Positions 223-13,169 are shown, counted from the first letter of the stretch. The stretch is 18,378 bases of DNA from a virus (IMGVR_UViG_3300029190_000051); one strand, 5' to 3'. Numbers and translations are program-made. Notes: generated by a model from the sequence alone, not told the origin.

Positions 223-570
223 TTACGAATTACTGCGGCGCTGTTGCTTTTCCGCATGTACGCGTTTCACAATCTTATAAATCCATTGCAGCGTCAGATT
301 ATATTTCTTCGCTAATTCGGCGTAGTTGCGCCCATCGCACTCGCTATAGATTTGGTAGTCACGCTCCGATGCTCGTCCGGAGATCCCCTTAGGGAAATAG
401 ATGCTTTGTCCGCCCCAGTTACGCATCATTCGGTCGGCAATGGCAAAACCCACATTTTCTGCCGATGAACTGTCGAGATTGATGCTTTCAATCAGAACTT
501 GCGATGCATGAAAAGCCAGGTCGTTAATGATCTCCGGTGTCCGGGCCATCTCTTTTGATTTTCGTATCAT
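223..570 (-). CDS. Mor/C-family transcriptional activator (phage Mu middle/late activator homologue)
   Basis: 115-aa ORF. The segment RNWGGQSIYFPKGISGRASERDYQIYSECDGRNYAELAKKYNLTLQWIYKIVKR aligns by eye with the recalled Mu Mor core (GGGQVYIPRG...IWNDFNGRN..EL...YG.T...VYK..RR), including the C-terminal helix-turn-helix. A GGAG ribosome-binding site lies 8 nt upstream of the ATG on the minus strand. Confidence 0.8.
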   Translation of the reverse strand: MIRKSKEMARTPEIINDLAFHASQVLIESINLDSSSAENVGFAIADRMMRNWGGQSIYFPKGISGRASERDYQIYSECDGRNYAELAKKYNLTLQWIYKIVKRVHAEKQQRRSNS

Positions 571-791
571 TTTTCATCTCCATATATCTTGCATCCTGAA
601 TAAGACCCGATGCGTGTAAAACCACGGATATACGCTAAGCAGTTGTCATTACTGCTACTCAATACATTCAATAAACAAATAAACAATCACCAAAAATATA
701 AACTTTTAATATTAATGAACGTCATAAATTCACGAAATAAATATATTGTTTGGATTATGTTTCTTATCAACAGGAGTATCATTTTACACTA

Positions 792-811
792 TACTGTATA
801 CATATACAGTA
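792..811. promoter_or_regulatory. LexA operator (SOS box), near-consensus
   Basis: TACTGTATACATATACAGTA matches the enterobacterial LexA consensus TACTGTATATATATACAGTA at 19 of 20 positions (CTGT-N8-ACAG with an AT-rich spacer), and is part of a perfect 10-bp inverted repeat ATACTGTATA/TATACAGTAT. It sits in the AT-rich divergent region between the Mor-like gene and the lysis/tail operon. Confidence 0.75.
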
Positions 812-1107
812 TTATTTTTACCTGTAGAGTAAAAAGATCGTTTCCCTCACAGTCGCTGACTTTCTTAAACAAACTTTAAAAATCAAATAACTATCGACTA
901 TTCCTACGATCCACCATCATCTTTCCCCTGCATAATGACGCGCTTATTAGCCTGGTCACCTTTTGCTCTTTAATTGCTGAGTCGATTTATTAGCGGGCTT
1001 GTTCATTTATAGAGAATCTATTTTTTAAACTTATTTATTAAAGCTTTTTTCATTCTTCACTGGCGGGTTCTGACGACACTAAACGCTCACTTATCAGGAG
1101 ATATCGT

Positions 1108-1395
1108 ATGAAAAAAGTCACTTTTCCCCGGCTTTCCGGCTGGCTAGTCGCTTCCGCCGCGCTGTTTGTCGTGATCGGCTGGACCTCTTCCGCACAGATC
1201 CCGGTCGTCATTTATAAACTAAGCCTGGTTTCGCTTTCCGCGGTGCTGGGATACTGGCTCGATCGCAGTTTGTTCCCCTGGGCACGGCCTGACTCTTTTA
1301 GCCCCTGGAAGGAACCTCGTTGCTGCGCGGCGGCAATGATTCGCCGCGCCATCATCGTTGCCGCCGTCTGTCTTTCCGTCGCCTTAGGGCTATAG
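1108..1395 (+). CDS. Putative holin (small membrane protein with about three hydrophobic segments), first gene of the lysis cassette
   Basis: 95 aa with hydrophobic stretches WLVASAALFVVIGW, VVIYKLSLVSLSAVLGYWL and AIIVAAVCLSVALGL. AGGAG lies 7 nt upstream of the ATG. The stop overlaps the endolysin start (TAGTGATG). Called by position and topology only. Confidence 0.45.
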   Translation: MKKVTFPRLSGWLVASAALFVVIGWTSSAQIPVVIYKLSLVSLSAVLGYWLDRSLFPWARPDSFSPWKEPRCCAAAMIRRAIIVAAVCLSVALGL

Positions 1396-1397
1396 TG

Positions 1398-2003
1398 ATG
1401 TGGCTGAAATATATCGCGTCTATGATTATTTTCGTTCTTTTCCCGCTTAACGCCTCTGAACCGCCGCGAGCCTCTCTGGCATGGCGAAACGAACTAATTC
1501 GTACAGCTCGAGAAGTCTGGGGGCTGAATGCTCCAGTGGCCGACTTTGCCGGGCAATTACACCAGGAGTCCGCCTGGCAGCCAATGGTACGTTCCCCCGT
1601 TGGCGCACAAGGTATGGCGCAATTTATGCCTGCTACAGCGACATGGATAAGCCAGTTGTATCCACAATTGCGTGAAAACAAACCGTATAACCCAACCTGG
1701 GCGATTCGCGCGCTGGTGCAATATGACCAGCATTTGTGGAAAAACATCTCTGCGAAAAATGATTGTCAGCGTATGGCGTTTACCCTAAGCGCCTATAACG
1801 GCGGTCAGGGGTGGGTTAACCGGGATAAAAAACTGGCTGCATCCAAAGGGTTAGATGCCACTAGCTGGTTTGGTCATGTTGAGCAAGTCAACGCCGGGCG
1901 CAGCGCCACGAACTGGCGAGAAAATCGTCGCTATCCAAAGATGATCCTCTATCAACATGCCGCCCGCTATTTACTCTGGGGACAGGCAAGCTGTCTTCAT
2001 TAA
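1398..2003 (+). CDS. Endolysin, soluble lytic transglycosylase (SLT/GH23-like) with N-terminal hydrophobic signal or SAR-like segment
   Basis: Contains the SLT-type motif region HQESAWQP...GAQGMAQFMPATA and a downstream AYNGG motif. The N-terminus MWLKYIASMIIFVLFPLNA is hydrophobic. I prefer the ATG at 1398 (GTG at 1395 also possible) over the track start at 1320, which would overlap the holin by about 75 nt. Confidence 0.75.
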   Translation: MWLKYIASMIIFVLFPLNASEPPRASLAWRNELIRTAREVWGLNAPVADFAGQLHQESAWQPMVRSPVGAQGMAQFMPATATWISQLYPQLRENKPYNPTWAIRALVQYDQHLWKNISAKNDCQRMAFTLSAYNGGQGWVNRDKKLAASKGLDATSWFGHVEQVNAGRSATNWRENRRYPKMILYQHAARYLLWGQASCLH

Positions 2004-2015
2004 TCAGAGGGGCCG

Positions 2016-2330
2016 ATGAAACTCAGTATCGATTTTTGGGAAGTGATCTCCCTTATGCTTTCCTTCGTTGGATTAATGTTTGCTGCCGGAAAACTGCTGT
2101 TAGCACAAATTGAAAAACGACTTAATGAGCGTTTTGAGTCTCTGGAAAATGCCCGCAGGGAATCAGAAACAAGTTGGTCGAAACTGGAAAGAGAATTTCT
2201 CGAATTTCGTGCCGAGCTTCCGCTGCATTATGTCCGCAGAGAAGATTATCTTCGTGGGCAAGCAGTATTAGAAGCGAAGCTGGATGCCTTATATAGCAAA
2301 ATCGAGCTGTTACAACGTGGCAGTTATTGA
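2016..2330 (+). CDS. Lysis accessory protein: N-terminal transmembrane helix plus coiled-coil (i-spanin-like or releasin-like)
   Basis: 104 aa with one N-terminal hydrophobic helix (VISLMLSFVGLMFAAGKLLL) followed by a charged helical region. It immediately follows the endolysin. I found no embedded lipoprotein (o-spanin) ORF in the other frames. Confidence 0.4.
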   Translation: MKLSIDFWEVISLMLSFVGLMFAAGKLLLAQIEKRLNERFESLENARRESETSWSKLEREFLEFRAELPLHYVRREDYLRGQAVLEAKLDALYSKIELLQRGSY

Positions 2331-2333
2331 AAA

Positions 2334-2367
2334 ATCCCCACCCTTATGTAAGGGTGGGGATTTTTTT
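2334..2367 (+). terminator. Rho-independent terminator after the lysis cassette
   Basis: ATCCCCACCCT / AGGGTGGGGAT forms an 11-bp GC-rich stem with a short loop, followed by a run of seven T. Confidence 0.7.
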
Positions 2368-2474
2368 AACCATTCAATTTTTTCTCTAAATCACATTAAA
2401 AGATTCTTCACCTTCGCTGCTTCAGAATACATTTCAACGATAACGAAGTGAGCGGTAATTAAGGTACAGCCTAT

Positions 2475-2930
2475 ATGGAAATTTTATCTGTAATGAATTC
2501 TGTTGTGACCAGATTACGTGAACACAACTCCGAAATGGATATATTTATTTCATCTAAGGATGCCCAGAAATATATTCCACAGACACAACGAGTTGCAGTG
2601 ATTATTAATTATAGCGGTTCTGTCTTTGCTACGCCCGAAAGCAGTAATGCCATCGTGCAACAGCAAATACTCCGCTTAACCGCCACCGTTATTGTTGGCA
2701 AAAATTGTGATGCATTAAACGCACTTGATCACATACGCAGCGCATTGGGTGGCCTTCCGCTTCCTGATTGTGATCGTCTGCTTTGGCTTGAAAAAGAAAT
2801 TAATACGGGTGAGAGCGGCGGTTTCTGCCGCTACATCCTGGAAATGGCGACCAGCTCGCTGTTTATCGCTGAACAGGAAAGCACGGATCTTCCCCTGCTT
2901 ACGGAAGTTAACTACGAGGAAACTGAATGA
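2475..2930 (+). CDS. Phage tail protein immediately upstream of the sheath gene (Mu gp37-like position; tail terminator/completion-like)
   Basis: 151-aa ORF, first gene after the terminator, overlapping the next ORF by 4 bp. Assigned by gene order and size relative to Mu-like tail modules, not by a recognised motif. Confidence 0.35.
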   Translation: MEILSVMNSVVTRLREHNSEMDIFISSKDAQKYIPQTQRVAVIINYSGSVFATPESSNAIVQQQILRLTATVIVGKNCDALNALDHIRSALGGLPLPDCDRLLWLEKEINTGESGGFCRYILEMATSSLFIAEQESTDLPLLTEVNYEETE

Positions 2931-3124
2931 AATACATCTACAACGGCCCAGCAAGCGGCGTCACCCTTGCCGATGGACAAGAAATCTTATTGTGGCCGAA
3001 CAGTGAAATTGATCTGCCAGAAGACAACGAGTGGGTCATGACCATGATTGCCCGCAATCATCTGACTCCTGTCATCACTCAGGAAGAACAAAATAACGTA
3101 GAGGAAATTGTACATGGCAGCTAA
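2927..3124 (+). CDS. Small phage tail-associated protein (Mu gp38-like position)
   Basis: 65-aa ORF translationally coupled to its neighbours, directly upstream of the sheath gene. Assigned by position only. Confidence 0.3.
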   Translation: MKYIYNGPASGVTLADGQEILLWPNSEIDLPEDNEWVMTMIARNHLTPVITQEEQNNVEEIVHGS

Positions 3125-4538
3125 TTATCTGCACGGTGTAGAAACTATTGAAATTGAAACCGGCCCGCGTCCGGTTAAAGCGGTAAAATCCGCCGTCATC
3201 GCTTTAATCGGTACATCCCCCTGCGGTCCGGTAAATAAACCAACATTATGCCTTTCTGAAAGCGATGCTGCGCAGTTTGGCTCGACTCAGGCTAACTTTA
3301 CGATCCCACAGGCACTGAAGGCAATTTATGACCACGGTGCCGGTACGGTGGTGGTGATTAACGTGCTGGATCCGGCAAAACATGGCTCCAACATCAGCAA
3401 TGAGAGTATCACTTTTGATGCTAACAACCAGGCGAAGCTCGCTCACCGCAATGTGCGTAACGTGGTACTAAAGCCCTCTTCATCAAATTCATCAACCTTT
3501 AACACCGCAGCATTTAGCGTAGATGAACAAACAGGCATAATTACCCGTAAAGGAGCCGACATTCCTCCTGGTGCGAAAGTTTGTGCCTATTATTCCTGGT
3601 GCGACCCTACAAAGGTCACCGCAGCCGATATTATCGGTACCGTAAATACCGCAGGCGACCGCACGGGGATGAAACTCCTTCAGGACACCTATAACCTGTA
3701 CGGTTTCTACGCCAAAATCCTGCTTGCTCCTGTGTTTTGTACGCAAAAATCGGTGACTACTGAGCTGATTGCACAAGCGGAAAAACTCGGTGCGATTACC
3801 TACATTGATGCCCCGATTGGGACAACATTCCAGCAGGTATTGGCTGGACGCGGTTCGCAAGGGGCTATCAACTTCAATACCAGCTCTGATCGTGCGCGTT
3901 TATGTTACCCACATGTCAAAGTTTACGATGGCATCACTAACCAGGAAATTCTTGAGCCTCTCTCTTCGCGTGCTGCCGGGCTGCGTGCCAAAGTAGACCT
4001 CGAAAAAGGTTTCTGGTGGAGCAACTCAAACCAGGAAATTCAGGGTATTACCGGTATTGAACGTTCGCTTTCCGCAATGATTGATGATCCACAAAGCGAA
4101 GTGAATCAGCTCAACGAAAACGGCATTACCACTATTTTCAATAGTTACGGCTCTGGTCTGCGCTTGTGGGGTAACCGCACAGCGGCATGGCCTACCGTGA
4201 CCCATATGCGTAACTTTGAAAACGTCCGCCGGACAGGCGATGTAATCAATGAGTCAATCCGTTATTTCAGTCAGCAGTATATTGATATGCCGATTAATCA
4301 GGCACTTATTGACGCGCTGACCGAATCGGTAAATACCTGGGGCCGAAAACTGATTGCCGACGGCGCACTGCTTGGCTTTGAGTGCTGGTACGATCCGGCA
4401 CGAAATTCACCGGCTGAACTCAGCGCCGGGCATTTATTGCTGAGCTATAAATTCACCCCGCCACCGCCGCTGGAACGTCTGACGTTTGAAACTGAAATTA
4501 CTTCTGAATATTTAGTCTCTCTGGAGAGCAATAGCTAA
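3108..4538 (+). CDS. Contractile tail sheath protein
   Basis: 476 aa. Size, position ahead of the tube gene, and conserved C-terminal sheath-like segments (ITTIFNSYGSGLRLWGNRTAAWP) fit a Mu/P2-type sheath. The true start may be the ATG at 3114, which has better spacing from the GAGGA at 3099-3103. Confidence 0.85.
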   Translation: MYMAANYLHGVETIEIETGPRPVKAVKSAVIALIGTSPCGPVNKPTLCLSESDAAQFGSTQANFTIPQALKAIYDHGAGTVVVINVLDPAKHGSNISNESITFDANNQAKLAHRNVRNVVLKPSSSNSSTFNTAAFSVDEQTGIITRKGADIPPGAKVCAYYSWCDPTKVTAADIIGTVNTAGDRTGMKLLQDTYNLYGFYAKILLAPVFCTQKSVTTELIAQAEKLGAITYIDAPIGTTFQQVLAGRGSQGAINFNTSSDRARLCYPHVKVYDGITNQEILEPLSSRAAGLRAKVDLEKGFWWSNSNQEIQGITGIERSLSAMIDDPQSEVNQLNENGITTIFNSYGSGLRLWGNRTAAWPTVTHMRNFENVRRTGDVINESIRYFSQQYIDMPINQALIDALTESVNTWGRKLIADGALLGFECWYDPARNSPAELSAGHLLLSYKFTPPPPLERLTFETEITSEYLVSLESNS

Positions 4539-5062
4539 TGGCTGGAAAAATTCAAATTAACCGTATTACCAACGCCAATATTTATCTCGATGGTAATAAC
4601 CTTTTAGGTCGTGCAACAGAAATTAAATTGCCGGATGTAAGTTTAATTATGCAGGAGCATAAAGCACTGGGCATGGTGGGTAAAATCGAACTCCCGGCAG
4701 GTTTCGATAAACTGGAGGGCGAAATTAAATGGAACTCCTTCTATCAGGACGTAATGCGTAAAACGGCAAACCCGTGGCAGGCGGTTGCATTACAGTGCCG
4801 CTCCAGTATTGATTGCTATAACTCCCAGGGGAAAGCGAATCAATTAGCGCTAGTGACACATTTAACCGTGATGTTTAAAAAGAATCCACTGGGCACATTT
4901 AAACAGAATGAAAACCCGGAATTCAGCAGCGCCTTTGGTTGCACTTATATTAAACAAGTAGTTGATGGTGAAACGCTGCTTGAACTTGATTATATGGCCA
5001 ATATTTTCCGGGTTAATGGTGTGGATCAATTAAGTACCTATCGCAATAACATCGGTGGCTAA
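4538..5062 (+). CDS. Tail tube protein
   Basis: 174 aa, starting at an ATG that overlaps the sheath stop (TAATGG). Size and position are typical of a contractile-tail tube subunit. Confidence 0.75.
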   Translation: MAGKIQINRITNANIYLDGNNLLGRATEIKLPDVSLIMQEHKALGMVGKIELPAGFDKLEGEIKWNSFYQDVMRKTANPWQAVALQCRSSIDCYNSQGKANQLALVTHLTVMFKKNPLGTFKQNENPEFSSAFGCTYIKQVVDGETLLELDYMANIFRVNGVDQLSTYRNNIGG

Positions 5063-5112
5063 GTTATTCGGGGCTACGGCCCCGAACTTTGCAAAATAAA
5101 TAAGGACACAAA

Positions 5113-5430
5113 ATGAAAGAACATTATATCTTGCAGTTTCCATTTACGTCGGCAGCAGGAAATAATATCGACACGCTGCAATTACGTCGCCTGAAAGTAA
5201 AAGATATGCGCAACGCCCGCCGGATCAGCGAAAAGCCAGAAGAGTGGGATGAACCGCTGATGGCGGCGATGACCGGACTGGTGCCAGAAGATTTAGCCGA
5301 AATGGATTTGCTGGATTACCAGGCATTGCAGAAACGATTTCAATCCATGCTTACCGTGGTTACAGAATCCTCCCCTGCTATGGCAGGCAATGGCGCTACT
5401 GGCGAGATGGTTTCGCTTTCCGCCCAGTGA
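5113..5430 (+). CDS. Tail assembly chaperone (P2 gpE / Mu gp41-like position)
   Basis: 105-aa acidic protein located between the tube and tape-measure genes, the canonical chaperone position. An overlapping +1 frame stays open to 5518. Confidence 0.55.
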   Translation: MKEHYILQFPFTSAAGNNIDTLQLRRLKVKDMRNARRISEKPEEWDEPLMAAMTGLVPEDLAEMDLLDYQALQKRFQSMLTVVTESSPAMAGNGATGEMVSLSAQ

Positions 5431-5504
5431 GATAGACGCCCTTACCGTCGATGACTTTAGCAACTGGCTGGATGAAGCCAGCGCCCAAATAAAAATCGAA
5501 TATG

Positions 5505-5529
5505 ACTCGCAGACCTGATGTCTGCGAGT
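5505..5529. other. Perfect 10-bp stem-loop in the chaperone to tape-measure spacer
   Basis: ACTCGCAGAC ctgat GTCTGCGAGT. It is not followed by a U-tract. The stop codon of the +1-frame extension (TGA 5516-5518) lies in the loop. Confidence 0.45.
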
Positions 5530-5619
5530 TTCCCAAGCCCGTCAGGTTTATTTCTTCCCTGCCCCTTTTTTTAGAAAAATAACCAGCGGGCCATTATCAA
5601 TATTTAAAGAGAAACAATT

Positions 5620-7995
5620 TTGGCCAACGATATTATTACCCAGCTTCAGGCGCGTAATGAGACGTTGACGCAGGCAATAGCCCGTTACGGCTCACTCAAC
5701 GCCAGAACATTGTTAACTCTCTCTACTCAGCAGGCGACAGTTATCAAACTAACGCAGCAGCTTGCCGATTCCGCTCTCCGCCTGGAGGAAAATAGCCGCA
5801 GCCGCGCTAATCTGATGGAGAAAACCCAAACATTTGCCGGGCAATTTAGCAAAGTATTCAATGTTGAAGCCCCCGACTGGAAGTTGCCGTATGAGTTTCA
5901 GGACAACATGGTCAATATGGCGACCAAAGGTGGGATGAATGCTACAACCCGCGAGACGCTCAGCCTTAATCTGCGCGACTGGAGCATGGATTTTAACCAG
6001 CAGCAGACCACCTTACAGAACGCAGCCCAAACGCTGATCGAAGGCAATTTGTCGTCGATGCAGGATCTCAACCGTTATATGCCGGAGATCGCCAAAGCTG
6101 CCACCGCCACGCGCGAAAGTGCTGAAACGTGGGCGAATGCCGCGCTCGCGACTCATGATCGACTGAATATTGCCCCGGAAAATTTCCACGCCGCGCAAAA
6201 CATGATGTACGGCATTAGCAAAAGCGGTGGGCCTGCCATTGCTGAACAAACGCAGTGGATAGAGAAATTTGCAGGTAAAACCGGCGCTCAGGGTCTGGAA
6301 GGTATGGCTGAACTGACTGCCGCCATGCAGATCGCAATGAAAAATGGGGCCAGCGCCAGTGCGGCGGCGGAGAATTTTGACCACTTTCTGCAAACCACCT
6401 TTTCGAAAAAAACCGATAGCTGGTTCGCCAGCCAGGGCGTCGATCTGCAAGGCTCTCTGCTTGAACATCAGCAAAACGGTATGGGTGTTAGCGAAGCCAT
6501 GACTCATATCGTACAAATGCAGCTTGAGAAGATGAACCCGGCGATCCTCGACACCTTCAAACGTACTATGCAGATTGAAGATTTATCTGCTCGCAGCAAT
6601 GCGCTGCAATCGATGGTGTCGCAATTTAATCTGGGCGAAATGTTCGGCGATGTGCAAACGGTGGAATTCCTGGCACCTATGCTGGCGAATATGGAGGAAT
6701 ATCGCCAGTTAAAAGCCTCTGCCATGCAAGCCACCAGCAAGAATCTGATTAACGCTGACTTTTCTGCGCAAATGGCCTCGCCCATTGAACAGACTAAAGC
6801 GTTACAGCTGGCATTAAATGATTTATGGCTCAGCATTGGTTTGCAGCTTATGCCGGCGATTGGCGAGCTGGCACAAAGCCTTACGACGGTTATTCGCCAG
6901 TTCAGCGCCTGGCTACGCGAACATCCGGCGCTGGTGCAAAACATTGCGAAAATCGTCGGGGCGGTTTGGCTGTTTAACGGCGCGCTGAATGTTTTAAAGC
7001 TGGGCGCGAACCTCATCACCTCGCCGTTTATTCGTCTGGTCGATATCTTCCTGAAAGTCAAGGCAAGTCTGGCGCTCACAGGCGGGGCAAGTAAGATGCT
7101 ATCAGCGGTTAAGTCATTGGGTGGCGGCGCAAAATGGCTAATGCAACTGCTTGGTCGTGGCCTGATTGGCGCACTGAAACAGGTAGGTCAGACCGTCTTC
7201 TGGTTGGGTAGGGTTTTATTGATGAATCCCATTGGTCTGGTCATCACTGCGATTGCGGGCGCTGCTTATCTGATTTGTCGCAACTGGGAGCCTATCTCCA
7301 GGTTCTTTTCGACCATCTGGCAACGTATCACCACGGCCTTTGACGGCGGCATTGCAGGAATTTGTCGGTTGATTCTCGACTGGTCACCGCTGGAGTTGTT
7401 CTATAGCGCCTTTTCCAGTGTGATGAATTGGTTTGGTGTCGAGATGCCTGCAAGTTTTAGCGAGTTCGGCAGCAATCTTCTGGGCAGTCTGGTTGACGGC
7501 ATAATGAATGCCTTCCCCGCTCTGAAAGGCATTATTGATCAGGTAAAAAACGCCATCCCAGACTGGCTAAAAACCACGATGGGTATTAGTACAGAAGGAT
7601 CGGCTACAGCTATTACAAGCACGACTAATACCGCATCCGTCTCCCCCGCGACCGTTGTTCCAGGCGTTGCCGGTGCGATTTTAACACCGCCGGTGGGCAA
7701 ACAACTCGCGCCATCCGGCAAAACGGCTACGCCGTCATCGGCGCCAGCGGCAAAAAATACAGCCGCCAAACCCGTATCTGCCTCTTTACCTGGTAAATCC
7801 GTAACCAAACCGGCGACGCTACCCTCCCGTTCCTCAGGAAAAGTCCAGGTAAATTTTTCGCCACAAATTACCGTGCAGGGTAACGGACAAAACACCACTA
7901 AAGAGATTCAGAACGTGTTGACGATGAGTAAACGCGAACTGGAAAGAATGATTAACGATGTAATGGCGCAGCAGCAGCGCCGGGGGTATGCCTGA
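5620..7995 (+). CDS. Tail tape measure protein
   Basis: 791 aa, the largest ORF, downstream of the chaperone. It has hydrophobic segments in the C-terminal third and a Ser/Thr/Pro/Ala-rich low-complexity tail. It starts at a TTG (5620) after AAAGAGAAA; the first in-frame ATG is about 65 codons in. Confidence 0.85.
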   Translation: MANDIITQLQARNETLTQAIARYGSLNARTLLTLSTQQATVIKLTQQLADSALRLEENSRSRANLMEKTQTFAGQFSKVFNVEAPDWKLPYEFQDNMVNMATKGGMNATTRETLSLNLRDWSMDFNQQQTTLQNAAQTLIEGNLSSMQDLNRYMPEIAKAATATRESAETWANAALATHDRLNIAPENFHAAQNMMYGISKSGGPAIAEQTQWIEKFAGKTGAQGLEGMAELTAAMQIAMKNGASASAAAENFDHFLQTTFSKKTDSWFASQGVDLQGSLLEHQQNGMGVSEAMTHIVQMQLEKMNPAILDTFKRTMQIEDLSARSNALQSMVSQFNLGEMFGDVQTVEFLAPMLANMEEYRQLKASAMQATSKNLINADFSAQMASPIEQTKALQLALNDLWLSIGLQLMPAIGELAQSLTTVIRQFSAWLREHPALVQNIAKIVGAVWLFNGALNVLKLGANLITSPFIRLVDIFLKVKASLALTGGASKMLSAVKSLGGGAKWLMQLLGRGLIGALKQVGQTVFWLGRVLLMNPIGLVITAIAGAAYLICRNWEPISRFFSTIWQRITTAFDGGIAGICRLILDWSPLELFYSAFSSVMNWFGVEMPASFSEFGSNLLGSLVDGIMNAFPALKGIIDQVKNAIPDWLKTTMGISTEGSATAITSTTNTASVSPATVVPGVAGAILTPPVGKQLAPSGKTATPSSAPAAKNTAAKPVSASLPGKSVTKPATLPSRSSGKVQVNFSPQITVQGNGQNTTKEIQNVLTMSKRELERMINDVMAQQQRRGYA

Positions 7996-8948
7996 TGTAT
8001 GCCGTTTTAGGAGAGATTGAATTTAAGGTTGTCACATTCTGGGACGGCTTTAAAAGCACAATGGGCGTGGATTACGCCACACATGCCCGTATAGAAGGCA
8101 AACCCGGCGTGCAGTTTATTGGCGATAAGCTGGATATGCTGGCGCTGGAATTTTCCCTGCACAGCCAGTTTTGCCAGCCCACAACAGAGCTGAACCGACT
8201 GCGTGAAGCCATGCTTGCTCACAAGGCGATGGCACTGGTATTTGGCAATGGCGATTATCGCGGCTGGTTTGTGATTACGGAGCTAACCGCCACCCACCAG
8301 CACACCGATCCCTGGGGCAATGTGATTGCCCAAAACGGAACGATGTCGCTCCAGGAGTACACCGGCGATCCTAAAAATCCACTTTTACCTCCGGCGATTA
8401 CCACCCAGGAGCCCAACATCGAGGAAAAGGCGAGCGATTTTCCCGACAAGGTGGAGTCCTGGTTTGATCAGATATTAAACGCCATCGAAGAAGGTATGCG
8501 TAAGGCCAAAGAGATGCTGGATGAACTGACACAAGCCATTGAAGATATTAAAAAAACGGTGGCAAAAGTGAAAGCAATGATTAAAGAGGCCAAAGCGTTA
8601 AAAGAAAAGTGTGAAAAGATAATTACGTCATTGAAAAAGACAATCGACGCCATCGAAACCCTGTTTAAACAGCCAATGGATCTGCAAACGCTGGCAGGAC
8701 TCCCAAAAGCGTTGTCGGCGCAGATTAAAACTTTACTGGGTAACATGCCAGGTATCCGGGACTGCGCCAATGACGCCAGTACACTGGTTGACCATGCTCA
8801 GGCGCTTTTCGACGACATTACCAGCGACATCGCCGAAGCGACGTTTGATAAAGCCGCAACGTTGGTTGATCAGGCACGAACAACGGTACAACAAACCACT
8901 CCCACAGTGAGCCAGCTTGCTGCCGCGACCATTACGAGGATCTGGTGA
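7995..8948 (+). CDS. Tail protein, P2 gpU-like / Mu gp43 N-terminal-like, with a C-terminal coiled-coil extension
   Basis: 317 aa. The N-terminal roughly 125 aa (MYAVLGEIEFKVVTF...GDKLDMLALEFSLH...) resemble gpU-type proteins in pattern and position. The C-terminal roughly 190 aa are Ala/Lys/Glu/Leu-rich and predicted helical. The start overlaps the tape-measure stop (ATGA-type coupling). Confidence 0.55.
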   Translation: MYAVLGEIEFKVVTFWDGFKSTMGVDYATHARIEGKPGVQFIGDKLDMLALEFSLHSQFCQPTTELNRLREAMLAHKAMALVFGNGDYRGWFVITELTATHQHTDPWGNVIAQNGTMSLQEYTGDPKNPLLPPAITTQEPNIEEKASDFPDKVESWFDQILNAIEEGMRKAKEMLDELTQAIEDIKKTVAKVKAMIKEAKALKEKCEKIITSLKKTIDAIETLFKQPMDLQTLAGLPKALSAQIKTLLGNMPGIRDCANDASTLVDHAQALFDDITSDIAEATFDKAATLVDQARTTVQQTTPTVSQLAAATITRIW

Positions 8949-9157
8949 TGCGATACCTTGAACATATCACCACCGACGGCGAACGCTGGGATAATCTGGC
9001 ATGGCATTACTACGGTGATGCGCTGGCTTATGAACGCATAATCGCCGCCAATCCACATGTAGCCATTTACCCGGTACTGCCTTCCGGTATTCAGCTCATT
9101 ATTCCGGTCATTTCCGTCAATAAAACCTTATCGGAGATCCCACCATGGCTGAGATAA
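8945..9157 (+). CDS. Tail protein X (P2 gpX-like, LysM-like fold)
   Basis: 70 aa with the pattern G..WD.LAWHYYGDA...ERIIAANPHV....LPSGIQLIIP, which fits the recalled gpX signature (YYG...ANP...LP.G..L). Confidence 0.7.
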   Translation: MMRYLEHITTDGERWDNLAWHYYGDALAYERIIAANPHVAIYPVLPSGIQLIIPVISVNKTLSEIPPWLR

Positions 9158-10185
9158 GCGTAACTGGTGGCGTCTTTGCCACACTCACGCCCATTTTTAC
9201 CCTCTGGTATGGGCATAAAGATATCACTTATGACATCACACCCTATGTCACCAGCATCAGTTACCACGACAGCATCAAAAACGAGTCGGATACCATCGCA
9301 ATTACACTGGATGACACAGATGGACGCTGGATAAAAGAGTGGTATCCCGGCAAAGGCGATACGCTGGCGCTGCATATGGGTTATCAGGGAGAGAAGCTGC
9401 TCGATTGTGGTCAGTATATTATTGATAAAATTGATATTTCAGCGCCACCTTCTACGGTAAATATTGATGGCATCGCCACTTCCGTCAATCAGGCGCTGCG
9501 CACCCGTAACAGCCAGGGTTTTGAAGAAACGACGCTTTCGGCTATCGCCAGCCGTATCGCACAAACTCACGGCCTAAAGCTGGTGGGCAAAATCGAGCCT
9601 CTGACAATTGACCGGGTGACACAGTACGGCGAAACCGATGTTGGATTTCTCAAACGTCTGGCCAGTGAATATGGTTATGCCGTAAAAGTGACGACGAAAG
9701 AGCTGATTTTTTCACATTTACCCACGCTGCGCTGCCTGGCACCTGTGAAAAAGATCGACCGCAAAGACGTTTCGCATTTCACCTTCAAAGATACCATTAA
9801 CCGTATCTACAAAAACGCCACCGTACAGCATCAAAATAGTAAGAAAAAAGAACTGGTTATCTACACTCACAACAGCCAGCAAAAACCGTCTGCCCGTGGA
9901 GTCGGCACCAGTGCCGACACGCTAAAACTGAACAGTCGGGCGACGGACGTTGGCGCAGCACAGGCAAAAGCCAACGCTGCACTCGACAGCCACAACGAAT
10001 ATCAGCAAACCGGAACGCTCACAATGATGGGCTGCCCGGAACTGACGGCGGGCAATAAAATCGAGCTAACCGATTTTGGCGTGCTTTCCGGTCAATGGCT
10101 AATTGATAAATCGACTCACAGTTTTGTGCGCAGCGGCTATACCACTGAAATCGACGTGTCGCGCGGGCCAGCGACCAGCCAGTAA
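9145..10185 (+). CDS. Baseplate hub protein (P2 gpD-like / Mu gp44-like)
   Basis: 346 aa, in the conserved U-X-D position after the tape measure. Size and order support the call. Confidence 0.7.
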   Translation: MAEISVTGGVFATLTPIFTLWYGHKDITYDITPYVTSISYHDSIKNESDTIAITLDDTDGRWIKEWYPGKGDTLALHMGYQGEKLLDCGQYIIDKIDISAPPSTVNIDGIATSVNQALRTRNSQGFEETTLSAIASRIAQTHGLKLVGKIEPLTIDRVTQYGETDVGFLKRLASEYGYAVKVTTKELIFSHLPTLRCLAPVKKIDRKDVSHFTFKDTINRIYKNATVQHQNSKKKELVIYTHNSQQKPSARGVGTSADTLKLNSRATDVGAAQAKANAALDSHNEYQQTGTLTMMGCPELTAGNKIELTDFGVLSGQWLIDKSTHSFVRSGYTTEIDVSRGPATSQ

Positions 10186-10194
10186 GGAGGAAAT

Positions 10195-10896
10195 ATGAAA
10201 GGAGTAACCCGTCAAACGGGGATTATCAGCGATATTGACGAAACCAGCGTTCGGGTGCGGGTCACGCTCCCGGAGTGTGACAATCTGAAGAGCAACTGGC
10301 TTGCGGTACTTCAACGCAATTCCCAGGACAATAAAGACTACTGGCTACCGGATATGGGCGAGCAAGTGGAAGTTCTGCTGGACAATAACGGTGAAGATGG
10401 CGTGGTGCTGGGCGCAGTTTATTCTACGGTTGACACCGCGCCTGTAGCCTCGCGCGACAAACGTTACGTCCAGTTTTCTGATGGCGCAGCGTTTGAATAT
10501 GACCGCAGCACGCACCAGCTGACGATCAACGGCGGTATCGAGAAAATCGTGATTGAGGTTATCAACGGTACCTGCCTGACATCGCCCAACGTTGAGATTA
10601 AAGCCCAACAGGTCACCGTGACTTCCGATACCGTCGATGTTAAAGCGACCGATGTCAGCATCGACGCCACTAAGGTCGAGGTTAAAGCAGCAGCAGTGAC
10701 GGTAGATGCGCCCATGAGCACCTTTACTGGCAACGTCACGGTAATGAAAAAACTCACCTGGCTTGGCGGGATGGCAGGAAGTGGAGGCATCGGTAACGCA
10801 GCCACGATAACCGGCAATGTCAACGTGATCGGCAACGTTCAGGCCAGCGGCGCATTGCAGGACAGCGGTGGCAACTCCAACCACCATTCACACTGA
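10195..10896 (+). CDS. Baseplate central spike (P2 gpV-like / gp5-VgrG-like) with a His-rich C-terminal tip
   Basis: 233 aa. The N-terminal region is OB-fold-like, followed by repetitive beta-strand-like V/T/D-rich segments (VTVTSDTVDVKATDVSIDATKVEVKAAAVTVDA). The C-terminus is ...GGNSNHHSH, consistent with an apex metal-binding His motif. Confidence 0.75.
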   Translation: MKGVTRQTGIISDIDETSVRVRVTLPECDNLKSNWLAVLQRNSQDNKDYWLPDMGEQVEVLLDNNGEDGVVLGAVYSTVDTAPVASRDKRYVQFSDGAAFEYDRSTHQLTINGGIEKIVIEVINGTCLTSPNVEIKAQQVTVTSDTVDVKATDVSIDATKVEVKAAAVTVDAPMSTFTGNVTVMKKLTWLGGMAGSGGIGNAATITGNVNVIGNVQASGALQDSGGNSNHHSH

Positions 10897-10902
10897 CGTT
10901 TA

Positions 10903-10931
10903 ACCCGCCTGATGGCGGGTTTTCTCTTTTT
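10903..10931 (+). terminator. Rho-independent terminator-like hairpin between the spike and wedge genes
   Basis: ACCCGCC tgat GGCGGGT followed by TTTCTCTTTTT. Confidence 0.5.
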
Positions 10932-10994
10932 AATCAATCAGTTTTCTAAATCGCTTTAATATCTCCACAGCCCGTTCAGGGCGAAAATACCCTC

Positions 10995-11354
10995 ATGAAC
11001 ACAAAAACACGCCCCTCAACGCTGCACTGGCAACCGGCCTTGCTGCGGCCTGAAGAATACGTCTGCGGACTGGATGATATTCACCAGGCAATACACATCA
11101 TTCTGCGTACACCGCGCGGCAGTGATCCCCACAGACCGCTGTTTGGCAGCAACTTGTGGCACTACATCGATTACCCCATCGAGCGGGCTATCCCGCATGT
11201 GGTACGGGAGTCGGTGGAAGCCATCCGCCAGTGGGAACCGCGCTGTCGGTTGCTGAAGGTGACACCAGTAATCGACGGCGAACATCTGACGTTACGTGTG
11301 CAATGGCGCGCCGCTGACGGCGTTATCAACTCAACGGAGGTGTTATGGCGATAG
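10995..11354 (+). CDS. Baseplate wedge protein (P2 gpW-like / T4 gp25-like)
   Basis: 119 aa with IHIILRTPRGSDPHRPLFGSNLWHYID...IRQWEPRCRL, which fits the recalled gpW/gp25 pattern (ILRTP.GSR...YGS.L...WEPR). Confidence 0.8.
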   Translation: MNTKTRPSTLHWQPALLRPEEYVCGLDDIHQAIHIILRTPRGSDPHRPLFGSNLWHYIDYPIERAIPHVVRESVEAIRQWEPRCRLLKVTPVIDGEHLTLRVQWRAADGVINSTEVLWR

Positions 11355-12460
11355 CCGAACCCAATTTTATTGACCGCGATCCTGCGCAAATTACCAGTGA
11401 GATGATTGCGCAATACGAAGATGCCAGTGGTAAAAAACTCTATCCGGCACAGGCTGAGCGGTTGCTCATCGACCTGTTTGCCTATCGTGAAAACCTTGTA
11501 CGCATCGCCATTCAGGAAGCGGCGAAACAAAACCTGGTCGCGTATTCCCGCGCGCCAATGCTGGATTATTTAGGAGAGCTGGTGGGCGTTCACCGTTTGC
11601 CTGCGCAGCCAGCAAAAACGACGTTGCAGTTTTCGGTCGTCAGTGCGTATACCAGCAATATCCTGATTCCCCAGGGGACGCGGGCCAGTGCCTCTGATAG
11701 CGTGATGTTCGCCACCGATGAAGATGTTCTGCTTCCGGCCTGGAGTTTGCATATCGCCGTTCCTGCCACCAGCCTCGCAGCAGGTGAACAGGGTAACGGC
11801 TGGCAGCCTGCACAAATTAGCGCTCTGGTCGACAGGATTGGTCATTATGACATCAACGTAACCAACCTGACTGCGTCAACGGGCGGCTGCGGTGAAGAGA
11901 GCGATGACGCATTGCGCCAGCGTATCCAACTGGCACCAGAAAGCTTTAGTAATGCGGGCAGCTATGGCGCATACCGCTTTCATACGCTTTCTGTTAGCCA
12001 GTCGATTATTGACGTTGCAGTACTGGGGCCGGACGAGGGATTGCCAGAAGGCTGCGTGGAGATCTACCCGCTAACCCTGAATGGACTGCCAGGAATAGAA
12101 CTGCTCGCGCAAATCGAACAGGAGGTTAGCAAGGAGAAAAAACGTCCGCTGACCGACAAAGTGAGTGCGAAATGCGCTCTTCGAGTGCCGTATGAGATCC
12201 GTGCGCAGCTAACGCTGTTTACCACCGCCGATCAGGAGACAACGCTGGCTGCGGCGCGTAAAGCGATTAGCCTCTGGACGCAACAGCGGCAGAAACATCT
12301 GGGGCAAGACATTGTGCCAAACCAGATAATCAAAGTGTTACAGGTCGATGGCGTCTATGACGTTGCGCTGAACTTGCCTACAAAACGTATTTTGCAGGCG
12401 CATGAATGGGCGGAATGCACTGCAATAGACGTCACGATCGCCGGAGTTAGCGATGGATAA
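11345..12460 (+). CDS. Baseplate wedge protein (P2 gpJ-like)
   Basis: 371 aa, overlapping the W-like gene by 10 bp and the I-like gene by 8 bp. Position and size fit the W-J-I baseplate triplet. Confidence 0.75.
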   Translation: MAIAEPNFIDRDPAQITSEMIAQYEDASGKKLYPAQAERLLIDLFAYRENLVRIAIQEAAKQNLVAYSRAPMLDYLGELVGVHRLPAQPAKTTLQFSVVSAYTSNILIPQGTRASASDSVMFATDEDVLLPAWSLHIAVPATSLAAGEQGNGWQPAQISALVDRIGHYDINVTNLTASTGGCGEESDDALRQRIQLAPESFSNAGSYGAYRFHTLSVSQSIIDVAVLGPDEGLPEGCVEIYPLTLNGLPGIELLAQIEQEVSKEKKRPLTDKVSAKCALRVPYEIRAQLTLFTTADQETTLAAARKAISLWTQQRQKHLGQDIVPNQIIKVLQVDGVYDVALNLPTKRILQAHEWAECTAIDVTIAGVSDG

Positions 12461-13169
12461 ATTGCTACCACCGCCGCCGCTTGCCAGCGATGAGCGTTTT
12501 TCGATTCTGGCAAATATCGCCGCCGAGCGTTTTGCCCAACTCGATCTGACGGCGTTGATGGTTTATCTGGTCGACCTGGTTGATGCTTCGGCATTACCAG
12601 CCCTTGCAGAACAATTTCACGTTCAGGGGTTGGAAGGTTGGTTATTTACCACCGATGAGCGGGAGAAACGCGAGTTAATTAAACAAGCCATTGAACTGCA
12701 TAAATATAAAGGAACAATTTGGGCGGTGCGGCGGGTGCTGGAAATACTCTCCTTACCCGGAACTATTTCAGAATGGTTTGAATATGGGGGAAGGGCTTAC
12801 TTTTTTAAGGTTGATATTACACTAGAGGAAAAAGGATTAAATGAAGATGAATTCAATGCACTTATCACATTAATTCATGAATATAAAAATGTCCGTTCAA
12901 AGCTGGAAAGCATTGTTATTTGGCTTATTAATCGAAGCCCAATACCAGTTATTGGCAGTGCCATGCAAGGAGGGGAAGTCATTACAGTATTGCCTCCTGT
13001 TGCAGAAAGCCTCAGCCAGTCATCTGGAATATTTTTAGCGACAGGTTATTGTGTGGAGGAATATATTCAACTACTACCTTATCAACCCGATCGACTAACA
13101 CAATCCCAACCGATGAAGGTCGGCACAGGATACTGGAGCACCGAAATTATGTCTGTATATCCGGAGTAA
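12453..13169 (+). CDS. Baseplate protein (P2 gpI-like) with a C-terminal extension
   Basis: 238 aa. [13 protein letters not shown]...[17 protein letters not shown]...EW.EY...FKVDITLEE...GEVITVLP parallels the recalled P2 gpI sequence. About 55 residues follow the gpI-like end and finish with a similar ...IMSVYPE. Confidence 0.7.

What the first reader, a model, noticed from the sequence alone, without database searches (positions are those of the whole stretch)
792..811. Near-consensus LexA box in the divergent control region: the tail cluster is probably wired directly to the SOS response
TACTGTATACATATACAGTA differs from the canonical SOS box at one position and is embedded in a perfect 10-bp inverted repeat. 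It lies between the Mor/C-like activator gene (minus strand, start 570) and the lysis/tail operon (plus strand, start 1108). No phage repressor gene is present in the element, so the likely circuit is LexA repressing the Mor-like activator, which in turn drives the late operons. That is simpler than the PrtR/PrtN relay of pyocins. The box is 220-300 bp from either start codon, which is unusually far and implies long leaders or an unannotated transcript.
Basis: partly seen in the sequence, partly recalled or inferred. Interest (0 to 1): 0.7.

Follow-up and report, generated by a model that had tools for sequence, protein, structure and literature searches.

The report
LexA operator controlling a tailocin activator
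A real, strongly conserved binding site for the DNA-damage repressor LexA sits in the control region of the Mor-type master activator of a headless phage-tail (bacteriocin-like) gene cluster in E. coli, so DNA damage probably triggers tail production and cell lysis without any phage repressor.

Summary
TACTGTATACATATACAGTA lies at 792-811, one mismatch from the SOS-box consensus, inside a perfect 10-bp inverted repeat. It is the only strong LexA-type site in the window.

The window is an E. coli chromosomal island next to lysC. It encodes a headless contractile tail, a lysis cassette and one Mor-family activator. It has no repressor, head, integrase or transposase. The sheath is 76% identical to that of the Pectobacterium carotovoricin cluster.

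The box is kept at the same place in Salmonella, Phytobacter, Dryocola and Superficieibacter. Only 22% of intergenic columns are invariant across the six aligned sequences, yet all eight CTGT/ACAG positions are. Alleles differ only in the central spacer.

The late genes have their own compact Mor-type promoters (dyad, 23 nt, -10). These occur three times in the window and also in BcepMu and carotovoricin. SOS can therefore reach the late genes only through mor.

Which promoter LexA blocks is not settled. The leftward, mor-directed reading is favoured. A rightward promoter (TTTACA-16-TACAGT) is not excluded.

The closest analogues are RdgA/RdgB in Pectobacterium and PrtR/PrtN in Pseudomonas; here host LexA replaces the dedicated repressor. 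I rate it a new variant of a known kind, of moderate interest.

The parts
792..811 (.). LexA (SOS) box TACTGTATACATATACAGTA; CTGT at 794-797 and ACAG at 806-809
   Evidence: Conserved in orthologous islands. Heterology-index-like score 1.82.
791..812 (.). Perfect 10-bp inverted repeat ATACTGTATA / TATACAGTAT with a 2-nt centre
779..811 (.). Conserved block 1 (CATTTTACAC plus the LexA box). It is one of only two islands in the 537-bp intergenic region with at least 15 of 20 invariant columns.
781..808 (-). Candidate leftward (mor-directed) sigma-70 promoter: -35 TGTATA 808->803, 16-nt spacer, -10 TAAAAT 786->781. An A-tract lies just upstream at 820->812. Predicted start about 774. The LexA box covers the -35 and the spacer.
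   Evidence: Read from the sequence. The hexamer TAAAAT/TAAAGT is conserved in all box-bearing orthologues. This is an inference.
783..810 (+). Candidate rightward sigma-70 promoter: -35 TTTACA 783-788, 16-nt spacer, -10 TACAGT 805-810. Predicted start about 817. The LexA box covers the spacer and the -10.
   Evidence: 9 of 12 matches. Recovered at the orthologous position in 8 of the 9 sequences scanned (3 E. coli alleles and 5 of the 6 other orthologues; not Dryocola).
837..879 (-). Mor-box-like promoter pointing at mor ('block 3'): dyad TTAAA-GTTTG-TTTAA 879->865, 22 nt, -10 AACGAT 842->837. Predicted start about 830, which places the LexA box at about +20 to +39. GATC 836-839 overlaps the -10.
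   Evidence: Same-sense hits in Dryocola and Phytobacter. Near-match in Enterobacter, weaker -10 in Salmonella, absent in Superficieibacter. This is a hypothesis.
223..570 (-). mor: Mor/C-family late transcriptional activator, 115 aa
   Evidence: Pfam PF08765 E=7e-38. PHROG 532 'late transcriptional activator'. 50% identical to the Pectobacterium RdgB-type protein.
571..1107 (.). 537-bp AT-rich divergent control region (26-29% G+C at 601-900)
1038..1080 (+). Late promoter 1 (lysis cassette): Mor-type dyad TTAAA-GCTT-TTTTC 1038-1051, 23 nt, -10 GACACT 1075-1080. Predicted start about 1087. The conserved A/T block 1019-1043 lies just upstream.
   Evidence: The same grammar precedes the holin of BcepMu, a BcepMu-like E. 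coli prophage and carotovoricin.
1108..2330 (+). Lysis cassette: holin 1108-1395, SLT transglycosylase 1398-2003, lipoprotein/membrane protein 2016-2330
2329..2367 (+). Intrinsic terminator: 17-bp perfect hairpin plus a U run
   Evidence: -26.9 kcal/mol, z = -5.6
2386..2428 (+). Late promoter 2 (gp37-sheath-tube operon): CTAAA-TCAC-ATTAA, 23 nt, CAGAAT
   Evidence: Orthologous hits in Salmonella, Dryocola, Phytobacter and carotovoricin.
2475..10896 (+). Tail genes: gp37-like, 65-aa protein, sheath (3114-4538), tube, assembly chaperone, tape measure, gpU, gpX, gpD, gpV
   Evidence: Sheath 76% identical to the carotovoricin-cluster sheath.
10902..10931 (+). Intrinsic terminator
10946..10988 (+). 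Late promoter 3 (baseplate/fibre operon): CTAAA-TCGC-TTTAA, 23 nt, GAAAAT
10995..15938 (+). Baseplate gpW/J/I, tail fibre (13172-14782), fibre assembly protein and a 151-aa ORF

Best explanation
The 20-bp palindrome at 792-811 is a functional, high-affinity LexA operator. It gates transcription of mor, the only regulator encoded in a carotovoricin-type (BcepMu-derived) headless tail and lysis island next to lysC.

In undamaged cells LexA sits on the operator and keeps leftward transcription into mor low. It would do this in two ways. It would occlude a weak sigma-70 promoter whose -35 and spacer it covers (-10 TAAAAT at 786->781). It would also act as a roadblock about 20-39 nt downstream of a Mor-box-type promoter at 879->837.

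Strong or prolonged DNA damage causes RecA-stimulated LexA self-cleavage and mor is transcribed. Mor then activates three -35-less late promoters: 1038-1080 before the lysis cassette, 2386-2428 before the sheath/tube operon, and 10946-10988 before the baseplate/fibre operon. Mor possibly also activates its own upstream promoter, which would make the decision all-or-none. The cell then assembles tail particles and lyses.

Shown here: the site, its statistical significance, its conservation, the absence of a repressor, the homology to carotovoricin and RdgB, and the recurrence and conservation of the late-promoter grammar.

Inferred: LexA binding, the leftward direction, the roadblock and feedback steps, and particle production.
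For: 1. The site scores 26.6 bits; the next best in the window is 13.9. None of 5000 local simulations reached 20 bits.

2. The box lies 222-231 bp upstream of mor in E. coli, Salmonella, Dryocola, Phytobacter and one Superficieibacter genome. In S. electus it is about 290 bp upstream because of a 62-bp insertion. A metagenome-assembled relative also keeps it. Seventy distant Mor loci have no such site near mor.

3. The intergenic region is only 22% invariant across six aligned sequences from five genera. The box has 15 of 20 invariant columns and all 8 CTGT/ACAG positions are invariant.

4. Nine box alleles were found within and between species. They vary in the central N8, plus the first base (T to G in Superficieibacter) and the last base (A to T in Salmonella). 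CTGT and ACAG are never altered.

5. No repressor, integrase or head gene lies between lysC and yjbD.

6. The late-promoter grammar occurs exactly three times in the window. All three are on the + strand and each lies in an inter-operon gap. Simulations give a mean of 0.06 hits, and none of 500 gave 3 or more. The same grammar precedes the holin genes of BcepMu and of a BcepMu-like prophage, and precedes both the holin and gp37 of carotovoricin. The late genes therefore do not need the distant LexA-box promoter.

7. In BcepMu, mor is the last gene of the leftward early operon, while the repressor and holin read rightward. Deleting the early, repressor and head genes gives exactly this layout. 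That makes a leftward operator-controlled promoter the natural driver of mor.

8. The conserved elements to the right of the box (block 3 plus its -10) are oriented toward mor in E. coli, Dryocola and Phytobacter.

9. In Salmonella 14028 RNA-seq, STM14_5073 rose 4.08-fold with nalidixic acid. I identify it as mor from its 348-nt length and neighbouring tag numbers. lexA rose 6.9-fold and umuC 3.9-fold in the same data set (PMC8072944 Dataset S1).

10. The Pectobacterium homologue (50% identity) sits behind an S24/HTH repressor. This matches the published DNA-damage-responsive RdgA/RdgB pair cited. The activator family is thus already tied to damage-induced tailocin production.
Against: The direction is not demonstrated. 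The rightward promoter TTTACA-16-TACAGT matches the consensus better (9 of 12) than the leftward one (8 of 12, poor -35), and it is recovered at the orthologous position in almost every species.

The mor leader of about 200 nt shows no conserved structure.

Enterobacter orthologues keep mor and the late promoter but have lost both half-sites of the box, so the element can persist without it.

The Salmonella data set is confounded by growth phase: ribosomal protein genes rise 35-48-fold. No tail or lysis gene appears in its differential list. The authors did not list the locus among SOS genes.

The Mor-box-like promoter aimed at mor uses a 5-nt spacer, has a weak -10 in Salmonella, and is missing in Superficieibacter.

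The late-promoter pattern was partly refined on the sites it then counts.

The LexA matrix rests on sites recalled from memory.
Confidence: 0.6

Rival explanations
1. LexA controls a rightward promoter (-35 TTTACA 783-788, -10 TACAGT 805-810). This promoter transcribes a leader of about 290 nt and then the holin/endolysin cassette, up to the terminator at 2329-2367. It could act alone or together with the leftward promoter as a divergent pair sharing one operator. SOS would then de-repress lysis genes directly, or prime the silenced AT-rich region. mor would have a separate promoter.
For: This is the best sigma-70 match overlapping the box. Both hexamers are recovered at the orthologous position in 8 of the 9 sequences scanned, all except Dryocola. 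The -35 hexamer is invariant across genera. No terminator is predicted between 817 and 1107. In BcepMu-type phages the rightward promoter of the divergent control region drives the repressor-to-holin side, so a relic could remain.
Against: The holin already has a complete, conserved Mor-type promoter with a short leader. A strong terminator after the lysis cassette would uncouple such a transcript from the tail genes, giving lysis without particles. The sequence between 812 and 1018 is poorly conserved and full of indels. The TACAGT hexamer is conserved anyway because it is part of the LexA half-site. No holin or tail gene was in the nalidixic-acid differential list, whereas mor was.
Confidence: 0.17
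2. The palindrome is an evolutionary relic or a chance AT-rich palindrome with no present regulatory role. The island would be silent, for example through H-NS, or controlled otherwise.
For: Enterobacter orthologues lack the box yet keep the island. In at least two E. coli genomes an IS element splits the box with no sign of harm. Tail genes were not induced in the one data set found. The region is very AT-rich.
Against: All eight core positions are invariant across five genera in a region that is 22% invariant. Variation is confined to the positions LexA tolerates. The score exceeds all training sites. None of 5000 simulations came close.
Confidence: 0.07
3. The LexA box controls an unannotated SOS-induced small RNA or small toxic peptide in the intergenic region, in the manner of tisB/istR, dinQ/agrB or symE/symR, rather than mor or the late genes.
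For: The box is 222 and 297 bp from the annotated start codons. Several short ORFs exist in the region.
Against: There is no Rfam match in the window. No ORF of 12 codons or more is conserved beyond the short stretches that overlap the conserved DNA blocks. No consensus RNA structure was found on the mor-sense side. The flanks of the box contain indels in every species comparison. No terminator is predicted nearby.
Confidence: 0.05
4. The palindrome is bound by a protein other than LexA, such as a repressor supplied in trans by a resident BcepMu-like prophage. It might also serve mainly as a preferred insertion target.
For: ISEc53 inserted exactly at its centre. E. coli can carry complete BcepMu-like prophages.
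Against: The sequence matches the LexA consensus position by position, including the flanking TA. It varies only where LexA sites vary. The BcepMu control region shows nothing similar. The box is conserved across genera irrespective of prophage content.
Confidence: 0.03

Closest known systems
RdgA/RdgB control of carotovoricin, pectin lyase and lysis in Pectobacterium carotovorum (Liu, Chatterjee & Chatterjee 1994; McEvoy et al. 1992). Both are cited in PMC13566846 and PMC3349551; the mechanistic details are from my own knowledge.
   Same: The tail clusters are homologous: same gene order holin-SLT-...-gp37-65 aa-sheath-tube, and the sheath is 76% identical. The activators are homologous Mor-family proteins, 50% identical. 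The same Mor-type promoter grammar precedes the holin and gp37. Both respond, or are predicted to respond, to DNA damage.
   Different: In Pectobacterium the activator gene is unlinked from the tail cluster. It sits behind a dedicated S24/HTH repressor (RdgA-like, 244 aa) and has its own TTGACA-17-TTAAAT promoter with no LexA box. Here mor is adjacent to the cluster, no S24 repressor exists, and a host LexA operator takes its place.
[quoted passage not shown]
   Same: The logic is the same: DNA damage removes a repressor, a single activator is made, and the activator turns on tail and lysis operons through a shared promoter box.
   Different: PrtR is a dedicated cI-like repressor and PrtN is not a Mor-family protein. 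The pyocin tail is P2-like with a different origin. Here the relay has one step fewer, because LexA itself is the repressor.
Direct LexA repression of colicin operons and of phage regulators: the Tum antirepressor of coliphage 186 and the Gifsy antirepressors (the latter mentioned in PMC7067206 and PMC8072944)
   Same: A host LexA operator sits on the promoter of a gene whose product starts a lethal or lytic programme. High-affinity boxes delay induction.
   Different: In colicin operons LexA sits on the toxin/lysis promoter itself. In 186 and Gifsy the product is an antirepressor acting on a phage repressor. Here the product would be a positive transcription factor, and no phage repressor remains.
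Phage Mu Mor and C cascade, and the layout of Burkholderia phage BcepMu
   Same: The activator is in the Mor/C family. The late promoters lack a -35 and carry a dyad centred about 33 bp upstream of the centre of the -10. BcepMu has the same box before its holin and the same mor-left, holin-right layout.
   Different: Mu-type phages place mor under the phage repressor through the early promoter, and Mu uses two activators in series. This island has lost its early genes, repressor, transposase and heads, and it carries a LexA box that BcepMu lacks.

Membership tests
Gammaproteobacterial LexA (SOS) box | 16-bp palindromic core CTGT-N8-ACAG within the 20-bp consensus TACTGTATATATATACAGTA | tested here: met
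   19 of 20 positions match and the core is perfect. Score 26.6 bits, above all 28 reference sites.
Gammaproteobacterial LexA (SOS) box | Position overlapping, or just downstream of, a promoter | tested here: inconclusive
   The box overlaps two sigma-70-like hexamer pairs, one on each strand. It also lies about +20 to +39 from a Mor-box-like promoter. None has a mapped start site.
Gammaproteobacterial LexA (SOS) box | Conservation in orthologous regulatory regions | tested here: met
   Present in five genera. All 8 core positions are invariant against a 22% background. It is lost in Enterobacter.
Gammaproteobacterial LexA (SOS) box | Binding by LexA, and LexA/RecA-dependent induction of the adjacent gene | not testable with these tools
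   The only indirect data are from Salmonella: the mor orthologue rose 4.08-fold with nalidixic acid in a confounded data set.
Mor/C family of late transcription activators | Mor domain with a C-terminal helix-turn-helix, about 110-140 aa | tested here: met
   PF08765 E=7e-38 over profile positions 2-103 of 107. PHROG 532 E=1e-35.
Mor/C family of late transcription activators | Target promoters without a -35, carrying a dyad upstream of a -10 and located before late operons | tested here: met
   Three sites with identical geometry lie in the three inter-operon gaps. The grammar is shared with BcepMu, a BcepMu-like prophage and carotovoricin. Binding itself was not tested.
R-type tailocin (carotovoricin type) | Complete contractile-tail gene set plus a lysis cassette | tested here: met
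   Sheath, tube, chaperone, tape measure, gpU/X/D/V/W/J/I, fibre, fibre assembly protein, holin and SLT endolysin are all present.
R-type tailocin (carotovoricin type) | No head, DNA packaging, replication, transposition or integration genes; fixed chromosomal site | tested here: met
   None lies between lysC and yjbD. The island occupies the same lysC-pgi site in E. coli, Salmonella, Enterobacter and a metagenome-assembled relative.
R-type tailocin (carotovoricin type) | Homology and synteny with the carotovoricin cluster | tested here: met
   Sheath 76% identical, holin 56% identical, same gene order. I identify L088 as carotovoricin by inference: PMC13195805 reports carotovoricin as the only tailocin in Pectobacterium.
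R-type tailocin (carotovoricin type) | Production of bactericidal tail particles | not testable with these tools
   No experimental report on this island was found in the library.
Repressor/activator relays (RdgA/RdgB, PrtR/PrtN) | A dedicated RecA-sensitive S24-type repressor encoded with, or for, the activator | tested here: not met
   The island has no S24 or HTH repressor. The Pectobacterium homologue has one immediately upstream.

The most novel reading that the evidence does not exclude
A BcepMu-type transposable phage was domesticated into a chromosomal tailocin at the lysC site of an enterobacterial ancestor. In the process its own repressor and operator were replaced by a single host LexA operator on the promoter of its Mor-type activator. 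The activator also feeds back on its own gene from a Mor-type promoter that must read through the LexA operator. LexA would therefore set the threshold and Mor would lock in an all-or-none suicidal decision. The switch is evolutionarily labile: it is decayed in Enterobacter, split by an IS element in some E. coli, and deleted together with the tails in some Salmonella.
Probability: 0.3. Interest if true: 0.65.

Novelty: new variant of a known kind. Interest (0 to 1): 0.55.

Why it matters
If correct, this is a minimal SOS-to-tailocin circuit with one operator, one activator and three late promoters. It occurs in about 3.6% of complete E. coli genomes and in the long-annotated but uncharacterised STM4201-4219 region of Salmonella Typhimurium.

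It would add a lethal, lysis-causing function to the LexA regulon of these species. The genome-wide Salmonella SOS study I read did not list this locus.

It also shows how a domesticated phage module can swap its own repressor for a host one. The sister system in Pectobacterium keeps a dedicated repressor, which gives a natural comparison.

Practically, it predicts which clinical E. coli and Salmonella lineages release tail particles and lyse under quinolones or mitomycin C. It also offers a compact, host-controlled expression switch for engineered tailocins.

Tried and rejected
- **Rfam scan of the whole window:** no family matched.
- **Conserved small ORFs in 571-1107:** the 89-aa ORF at 610-879 and ten shorter ones are similar between species only where they cross the conserved DNA blocks.
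- **Consensus RNA structure of the putative mor leader:** none found.
- **A closer mor promoter** (TTGATA or TTGACA at 770->765 with TATATT): it has a 19-nt spacer and is not conserved outside E. coli. Rejected as the family-wide promoter.
- **Block 3 as a rightward promoter:** there is no conserved -10 on that side.
- **A LexA box in front of carotovoricin or rdgB in Pectobacterium:** none found.
- **The 'ST131 tailocin' paper (PMC9205054):** it describes a different, P2-like prophage.
- **Experimental start sites and mitomycin C arrays for Salmonella:** the papers I tried (a J Bacteriol 2005 DOI, PMC3356629, PMC206390) are not held. PMC7067206 does not cover this locus.
- **Literature searches for a prior description of a Mor-plus-LexA tailocin circuit, or of this island:** nothing found.
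- **PADLOC scan of the right-end genes:** no hits.

Full report
**1. The observation**

The sequence at 792-811 is TACTGTATACATATACAGTA. It differs from the SOS-box consensus TACTGTATATATATACAGTA at one central position. It is the only match in the 18,378-bp window at up to three mismatches, and none of 200 shuffles gave any match. CTGT-N8-ACAG occurs once in the window. The arms 791-800 and 803-812 form a perfect 10-bp inverted repeat.

I built a weight matrix from 28 E. coli LexA sites recalled from memory; treat it as a reasonable but unofficial model. It scores the site at 26.6 bits, above every training site. The runner-up in the window scores 13.9 bits. The local DNA is only 26-29% G+C, so I simulated the 537-bp intergenic region 5000 times with a first-order Markov model. 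The best simulated score was 19.9 bits. A heterology-index-like score on the same site set gives 1.82. On that scale umuDC scores 1.25, sulA 3.55 and recA 4.5. This is the class of operators released only by strong SOS induction.

**2. What the window is**

The first 1400 bases are 100% identical to several E. coli chromosomes. One hundred and eighty-six of 5,426 complete genomes carry the region next to lysC. The intergenic region alone is found in 197 genomes.

RefSeq annotation and Pfam/PHROG scans give the following order:

- the lysC 3' end
- a Mor-family gene at 223-570 (-)
- a 537-bp gap
- holin, SLT transglycosylase and a lipoprotein
- gp37-like protein, sheath, tube, chaperone and tape measure
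- gpU, gpX, gpD, gpV, gpW, gpJ and gpI
- tail fibre and fibre assembly protein
- an RlaP nucleotidyltransferase and an SPFH protein on the other strand, followed by yjbD

There is no head, terminase, transposase, integrase or repressor gene. The island is therefore a headless contractile-tail and lysis cluster with one regulator.

**3. Relatives**

Salmonella has the same island at the same site; the annotation of strain SARB27 maps it to LT2 tags STM4212-4219. A scan of species-representative genomes with a Mor alignment found close relatives (81-88% identity) in Dryocola, Phytobacter and two Superficieibacter genomes. It also found 70 distant Mor loci in Pectobacterium, Pseudomonas, Burkholderia, Pasteurellaceae and other groups. 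Enterobacter and a metagenome-assembled relative also carry the island beside lysC.

The Pectobacterium holin homologue heads a cluster with the same gene order, and its sheath is 76% identical. Carotovoricin is reported as the only tailocin of that genus (PMC13195805). It is described as 'Mu-type' (PMC13566846). Yamada et al. 2006, whose title is cited, relate it to a Salmonella Typhi prophage. On that basis I take the Pectobacterium cluster to be carotovoricin, and the island here to be a carotovoricin-type tailocin cluster.

Phage BcepMu shares DNA similarity in the endolysin. Its layout is mor at the far end of the leftward early operon, with the repressor and then the holin reading rightward. 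Deleting the early, repressor and head genes gives the arrangement seen here.

**4. Conservation of the box**

All box-bearing relatives have a LexA-type site of 21.6-28.7 bits. It lies 222-231 bp upstream of mor, or about 290 bp in S. electus, which has a 62-bp insertion. None of the 70 distant Mor loci has such a site near mor.

In a six-sequence alignment spanning five genera, only 22% of the intergenic columns are invariant. The box has 15 of 20 invariant columns, and all eight CTGT/ACAG positions are invariant. Only two islands in the whole region reach 15 of 20: 779-811 and 1019-1052.

Three E. coli alleles and three Salmonella alleles differ only in the central spacer. Between genera, the first base (G in Superficieibacter) and the last base (T in Salmonella) also vary. 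This is the pattern expected for a site kept for LexA.

There are exceptions. Both half-sites are decayed in the Enterobacter versions. Some Salmonella keep only an orphan mor, with the tails and the box deleted. In at least two E. coli genomes an ISL3-like ISEc53 sits in the centre of the box, with an 8-bp duplication ATGCACAT.

**5. The late genes have their own promoters**

The second conserved island, 1019-1052, lies just upstream of the holin. I compared it with the regions upstream of the holins of carotovoricin, a complete BcepMu-like E. coli prophage and BcepMu itself. This gave a common grammar: [C/T]TAAA-N4-[A/T]TT[A/T][A/C], then 23 nt, then a -10 of the form nAnnnT, with no -35.

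In the window the pattern occurs exactly three times. All three sites are on the + strand and each lies in an inter-operon gap:

- 1038-1080, before the holin
- 2386-2428, before gp37 and the sheath
- 10946-10988, before gpW

Markov simulations give a mean of 0.06 hits, and none of 500 gave three or more. The pattern was partly refined on these sites, so that figure is optimistic. The orthologous sites in Salmonella, Dryocola, Phytobacter, Enterobacter and carotovoricin give independent support.

Terminators separate the operons. One is a 17-bp hairpin at 2329-2366 (-26.9 kcal/mol). The other is at 10902-10931.

The dyad centre lies 33 bp upstream of the centre of the -10. To my knowledge that is the geometry of Mor- and C-dependent promoters of Mu. 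The 297 bp between the box and the holin start is therefore not a leader. The holin leader is about 20 nt, and SOS control can reach the late genes only through Mor.

**6. Which promoter does LexA block?**

Two sigma-70-like promoters overlap the box.

- Rightward: TTTACA (783-788), 16 nt, TACAGT (805-810). It matches 9 of 12 consensus positions. It is recovered at the orthologous position in 8 of the 9 sequences scanned, all except Dryocola.
- Leftward: TGTATA (808->803), 16 nt, TAAAAT (786->781). It matches 8 of 12, with an A-tract just upstream.

The conserved hexamer TTTACA/TGTAAA serves either reading, so the sequence alone does not decide.

I favour the leftward, mor-directed reading for five reasons.

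1. The holin needs no further promoter.
2. A rightward transcript would stop at the terminator after the lysis cassette. That would give lysis without tails.
3. The BcepMu layout makes the leftward promoter the descendant of the early promoter.
4. The third conserved element of the region, the dyad TTAAA-N5-TTTAA at 865-879, is followed on the mor-sense strand by a -10-like hexamer after 22-23 nt. The hexamer is AACGAT in E. coli and Phytobacter, TACACT in Dryocola and TACGAT in Enterobacter. This is the same dyad-to-(-10) geometry as the late promoters. It would be a Mor-dependent promoter reading through the LexA box (+20 to +39) into mor, which is positive feedback gated by LexA. This is a hypothesis. 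The -10 is weaker in Salmonella and the element is absent in Superficieibacter.
5. In the supplementary RNA-seq table of the Salmonella SOS study, STM14_5073 rises 4.08-fold with nalidixic acid. It is a 348-nt gene on the + strand, which I identify as mor from its length and neighbouring tag numbers. No gene tagged STM14_506x or STM14_5070-5072 is listed.

That last comparison is confounded by growth phase: ribosomal protein genes rise 35-48-fold. The authors did not list the locus among their 48 SOS genes. I could not confirm that strain 14028 carries the box. All five Salmonella loci with the full cluster that I fetched, and SARB27, do carry it.

**7. Comparison with known systems**

The Pectobacterium Mor homologue is 50% identical. 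It sits directly behind a 244-aa HTH/S24 repressor, in a housekeeping neighbourhood and unlinked from the tail cluster. Its own promoter is TTGACA-17-TTAAAT, flanked by AAAACAAC repeats, with no LexA box.

This matches the published rdgA-rdgB pair, which controls damage-induced pectin lyase, carotovoricin and lysis. The references are cited; the details are from my own knowledge. The circuit logic also parallels PrtR/PrtN of the pyocins. Direct LexA control is known for colicins and for the antirepressors of phage 186 and the Gifsy prophages.

What differs here is that host LexA replaces the dedicated repressor on a Mor-type activator gene that is physically attached to its tailocin. I did not find this arrangement described in the searchable library. 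I cannot exclude a description in literature that the library does not hold.

**8. Verdict**

LexA binding, the transcription start sites, the Mor dependence of the late promoters and particle production all remain to be shown.

I put about 0.6 on 'LexA operator gating mor' and about 0.17 on a purely rightward target. The remaining probability goes to a relic, a small RNA or another binding protein. This is a new variant of a known kind and of moderate interest.

Noticed in passing
L077 2093-2125 and 3990-4020 (E. coli MS 21-1); L078 (E. coli AF10); equivalent to window 798-805: An ISL3-like ISEc53 element carrying a ClbS/DfsB-family gene is inserted exactly in the centre of the LexA box, with an 8-bp target duplication ATGCACAT. 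No LexA-type site remains. Eleven of 197 E. coli carriers give only a partial match to the intergenic region; I inspected two of them.
   Followed up: partly
L084 3496-4000; L091 2584-3000 (Enterobacter): Enterobacter versions of the island keep mor, the holin promoter dyad and block 3. Both LexA half-sites are decayed (CTGT to TTTT or ATCT; ACAG to ACAC), and a perfect TATAAT has formed on the holin-sense strand at that spot.
   Followed up: partly
L094 and L095 (Salmonella, the P0004 cluster of 332 member sequences): An orphan mor lies next to lysC. The tail cluster and the LexA box are deleted, homology ends about 150 bp upstream of mor, and a hexapeptide-repeat acetyltransferase gene lies beyond.
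   Followed up: partly
window 865-879 and 837-842: A conserved dyad TTAAA-CAAAC-TTTAA ('block 3') resembles the Mor box. On the mor-sense strand it is followed by a -10-like AACGAT that overlaps a GATC (Dam) site at 836-839. Salmonella has two GATC sites in an inverted repeat, CGATCAAAAAGATCG, at this position.
   Followed up: partly
window 2329-2367 and 10902-10931: Strong intrinsic terminators split the cluster into at least three transcription units (lysis; sheath to gpV; baseplate and fibres). Each unit is restarted by a Mor-type promoter.
   Followed up: yes
window 10983-10997: The predicted start of late promoter 3 falls on, or within a base or two of, the annotated ATG at 10995. The gpW-like gene may therefore be leaderless, or may start further downstream.
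   Followed up: no
window 15952-17876 (minus strand): An RlaP-family nucleotidyltransferase and an SPFH/slipin protein form a convergent pair at the right end of the island. They have no PADLOC hit. They could be cargo, or a defence-like or immunity-like module of unknown role.
   Followed up: partly
window 15483-15938: A 151-aa ORF after the fibre assembly gene has no Pfam hit. It matches the N-terminal half of a 381-position PHROG profile annotated 'enoyl-CoA hydratase/carnithine racemase-like' (E=3e-58). It may be a second fibre chaperone or a truncated gene.
   Followed up: no
L006 about 4820-4885 (Superficieibacter electus): A 62-bp insertion with hairpin potential lies in the putative mor leader. 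It is the only large change in the box-to-mor distance among the orthologues.
   Followed up: no
L007 4800-4900 (Pectobacterium, upstream of the RdgB-type gene): A near-consensus promoter TTGACA-17-TTAAAT is flanked by three AAAACAAC repeats. These are candidate operators for the adjacent S24 repressor.
   Followed up: no
PMC8072944, Table 1 and Dataset S1: The genome-wide Salmonella SOS study lists 48 LexA-box genes but not this locus. Other Salmonella genomes have a near-perfect box within 400 bp of both start codons, and mor is in the study's own up-regulated list (4.08-fold).
   Followed up: partly
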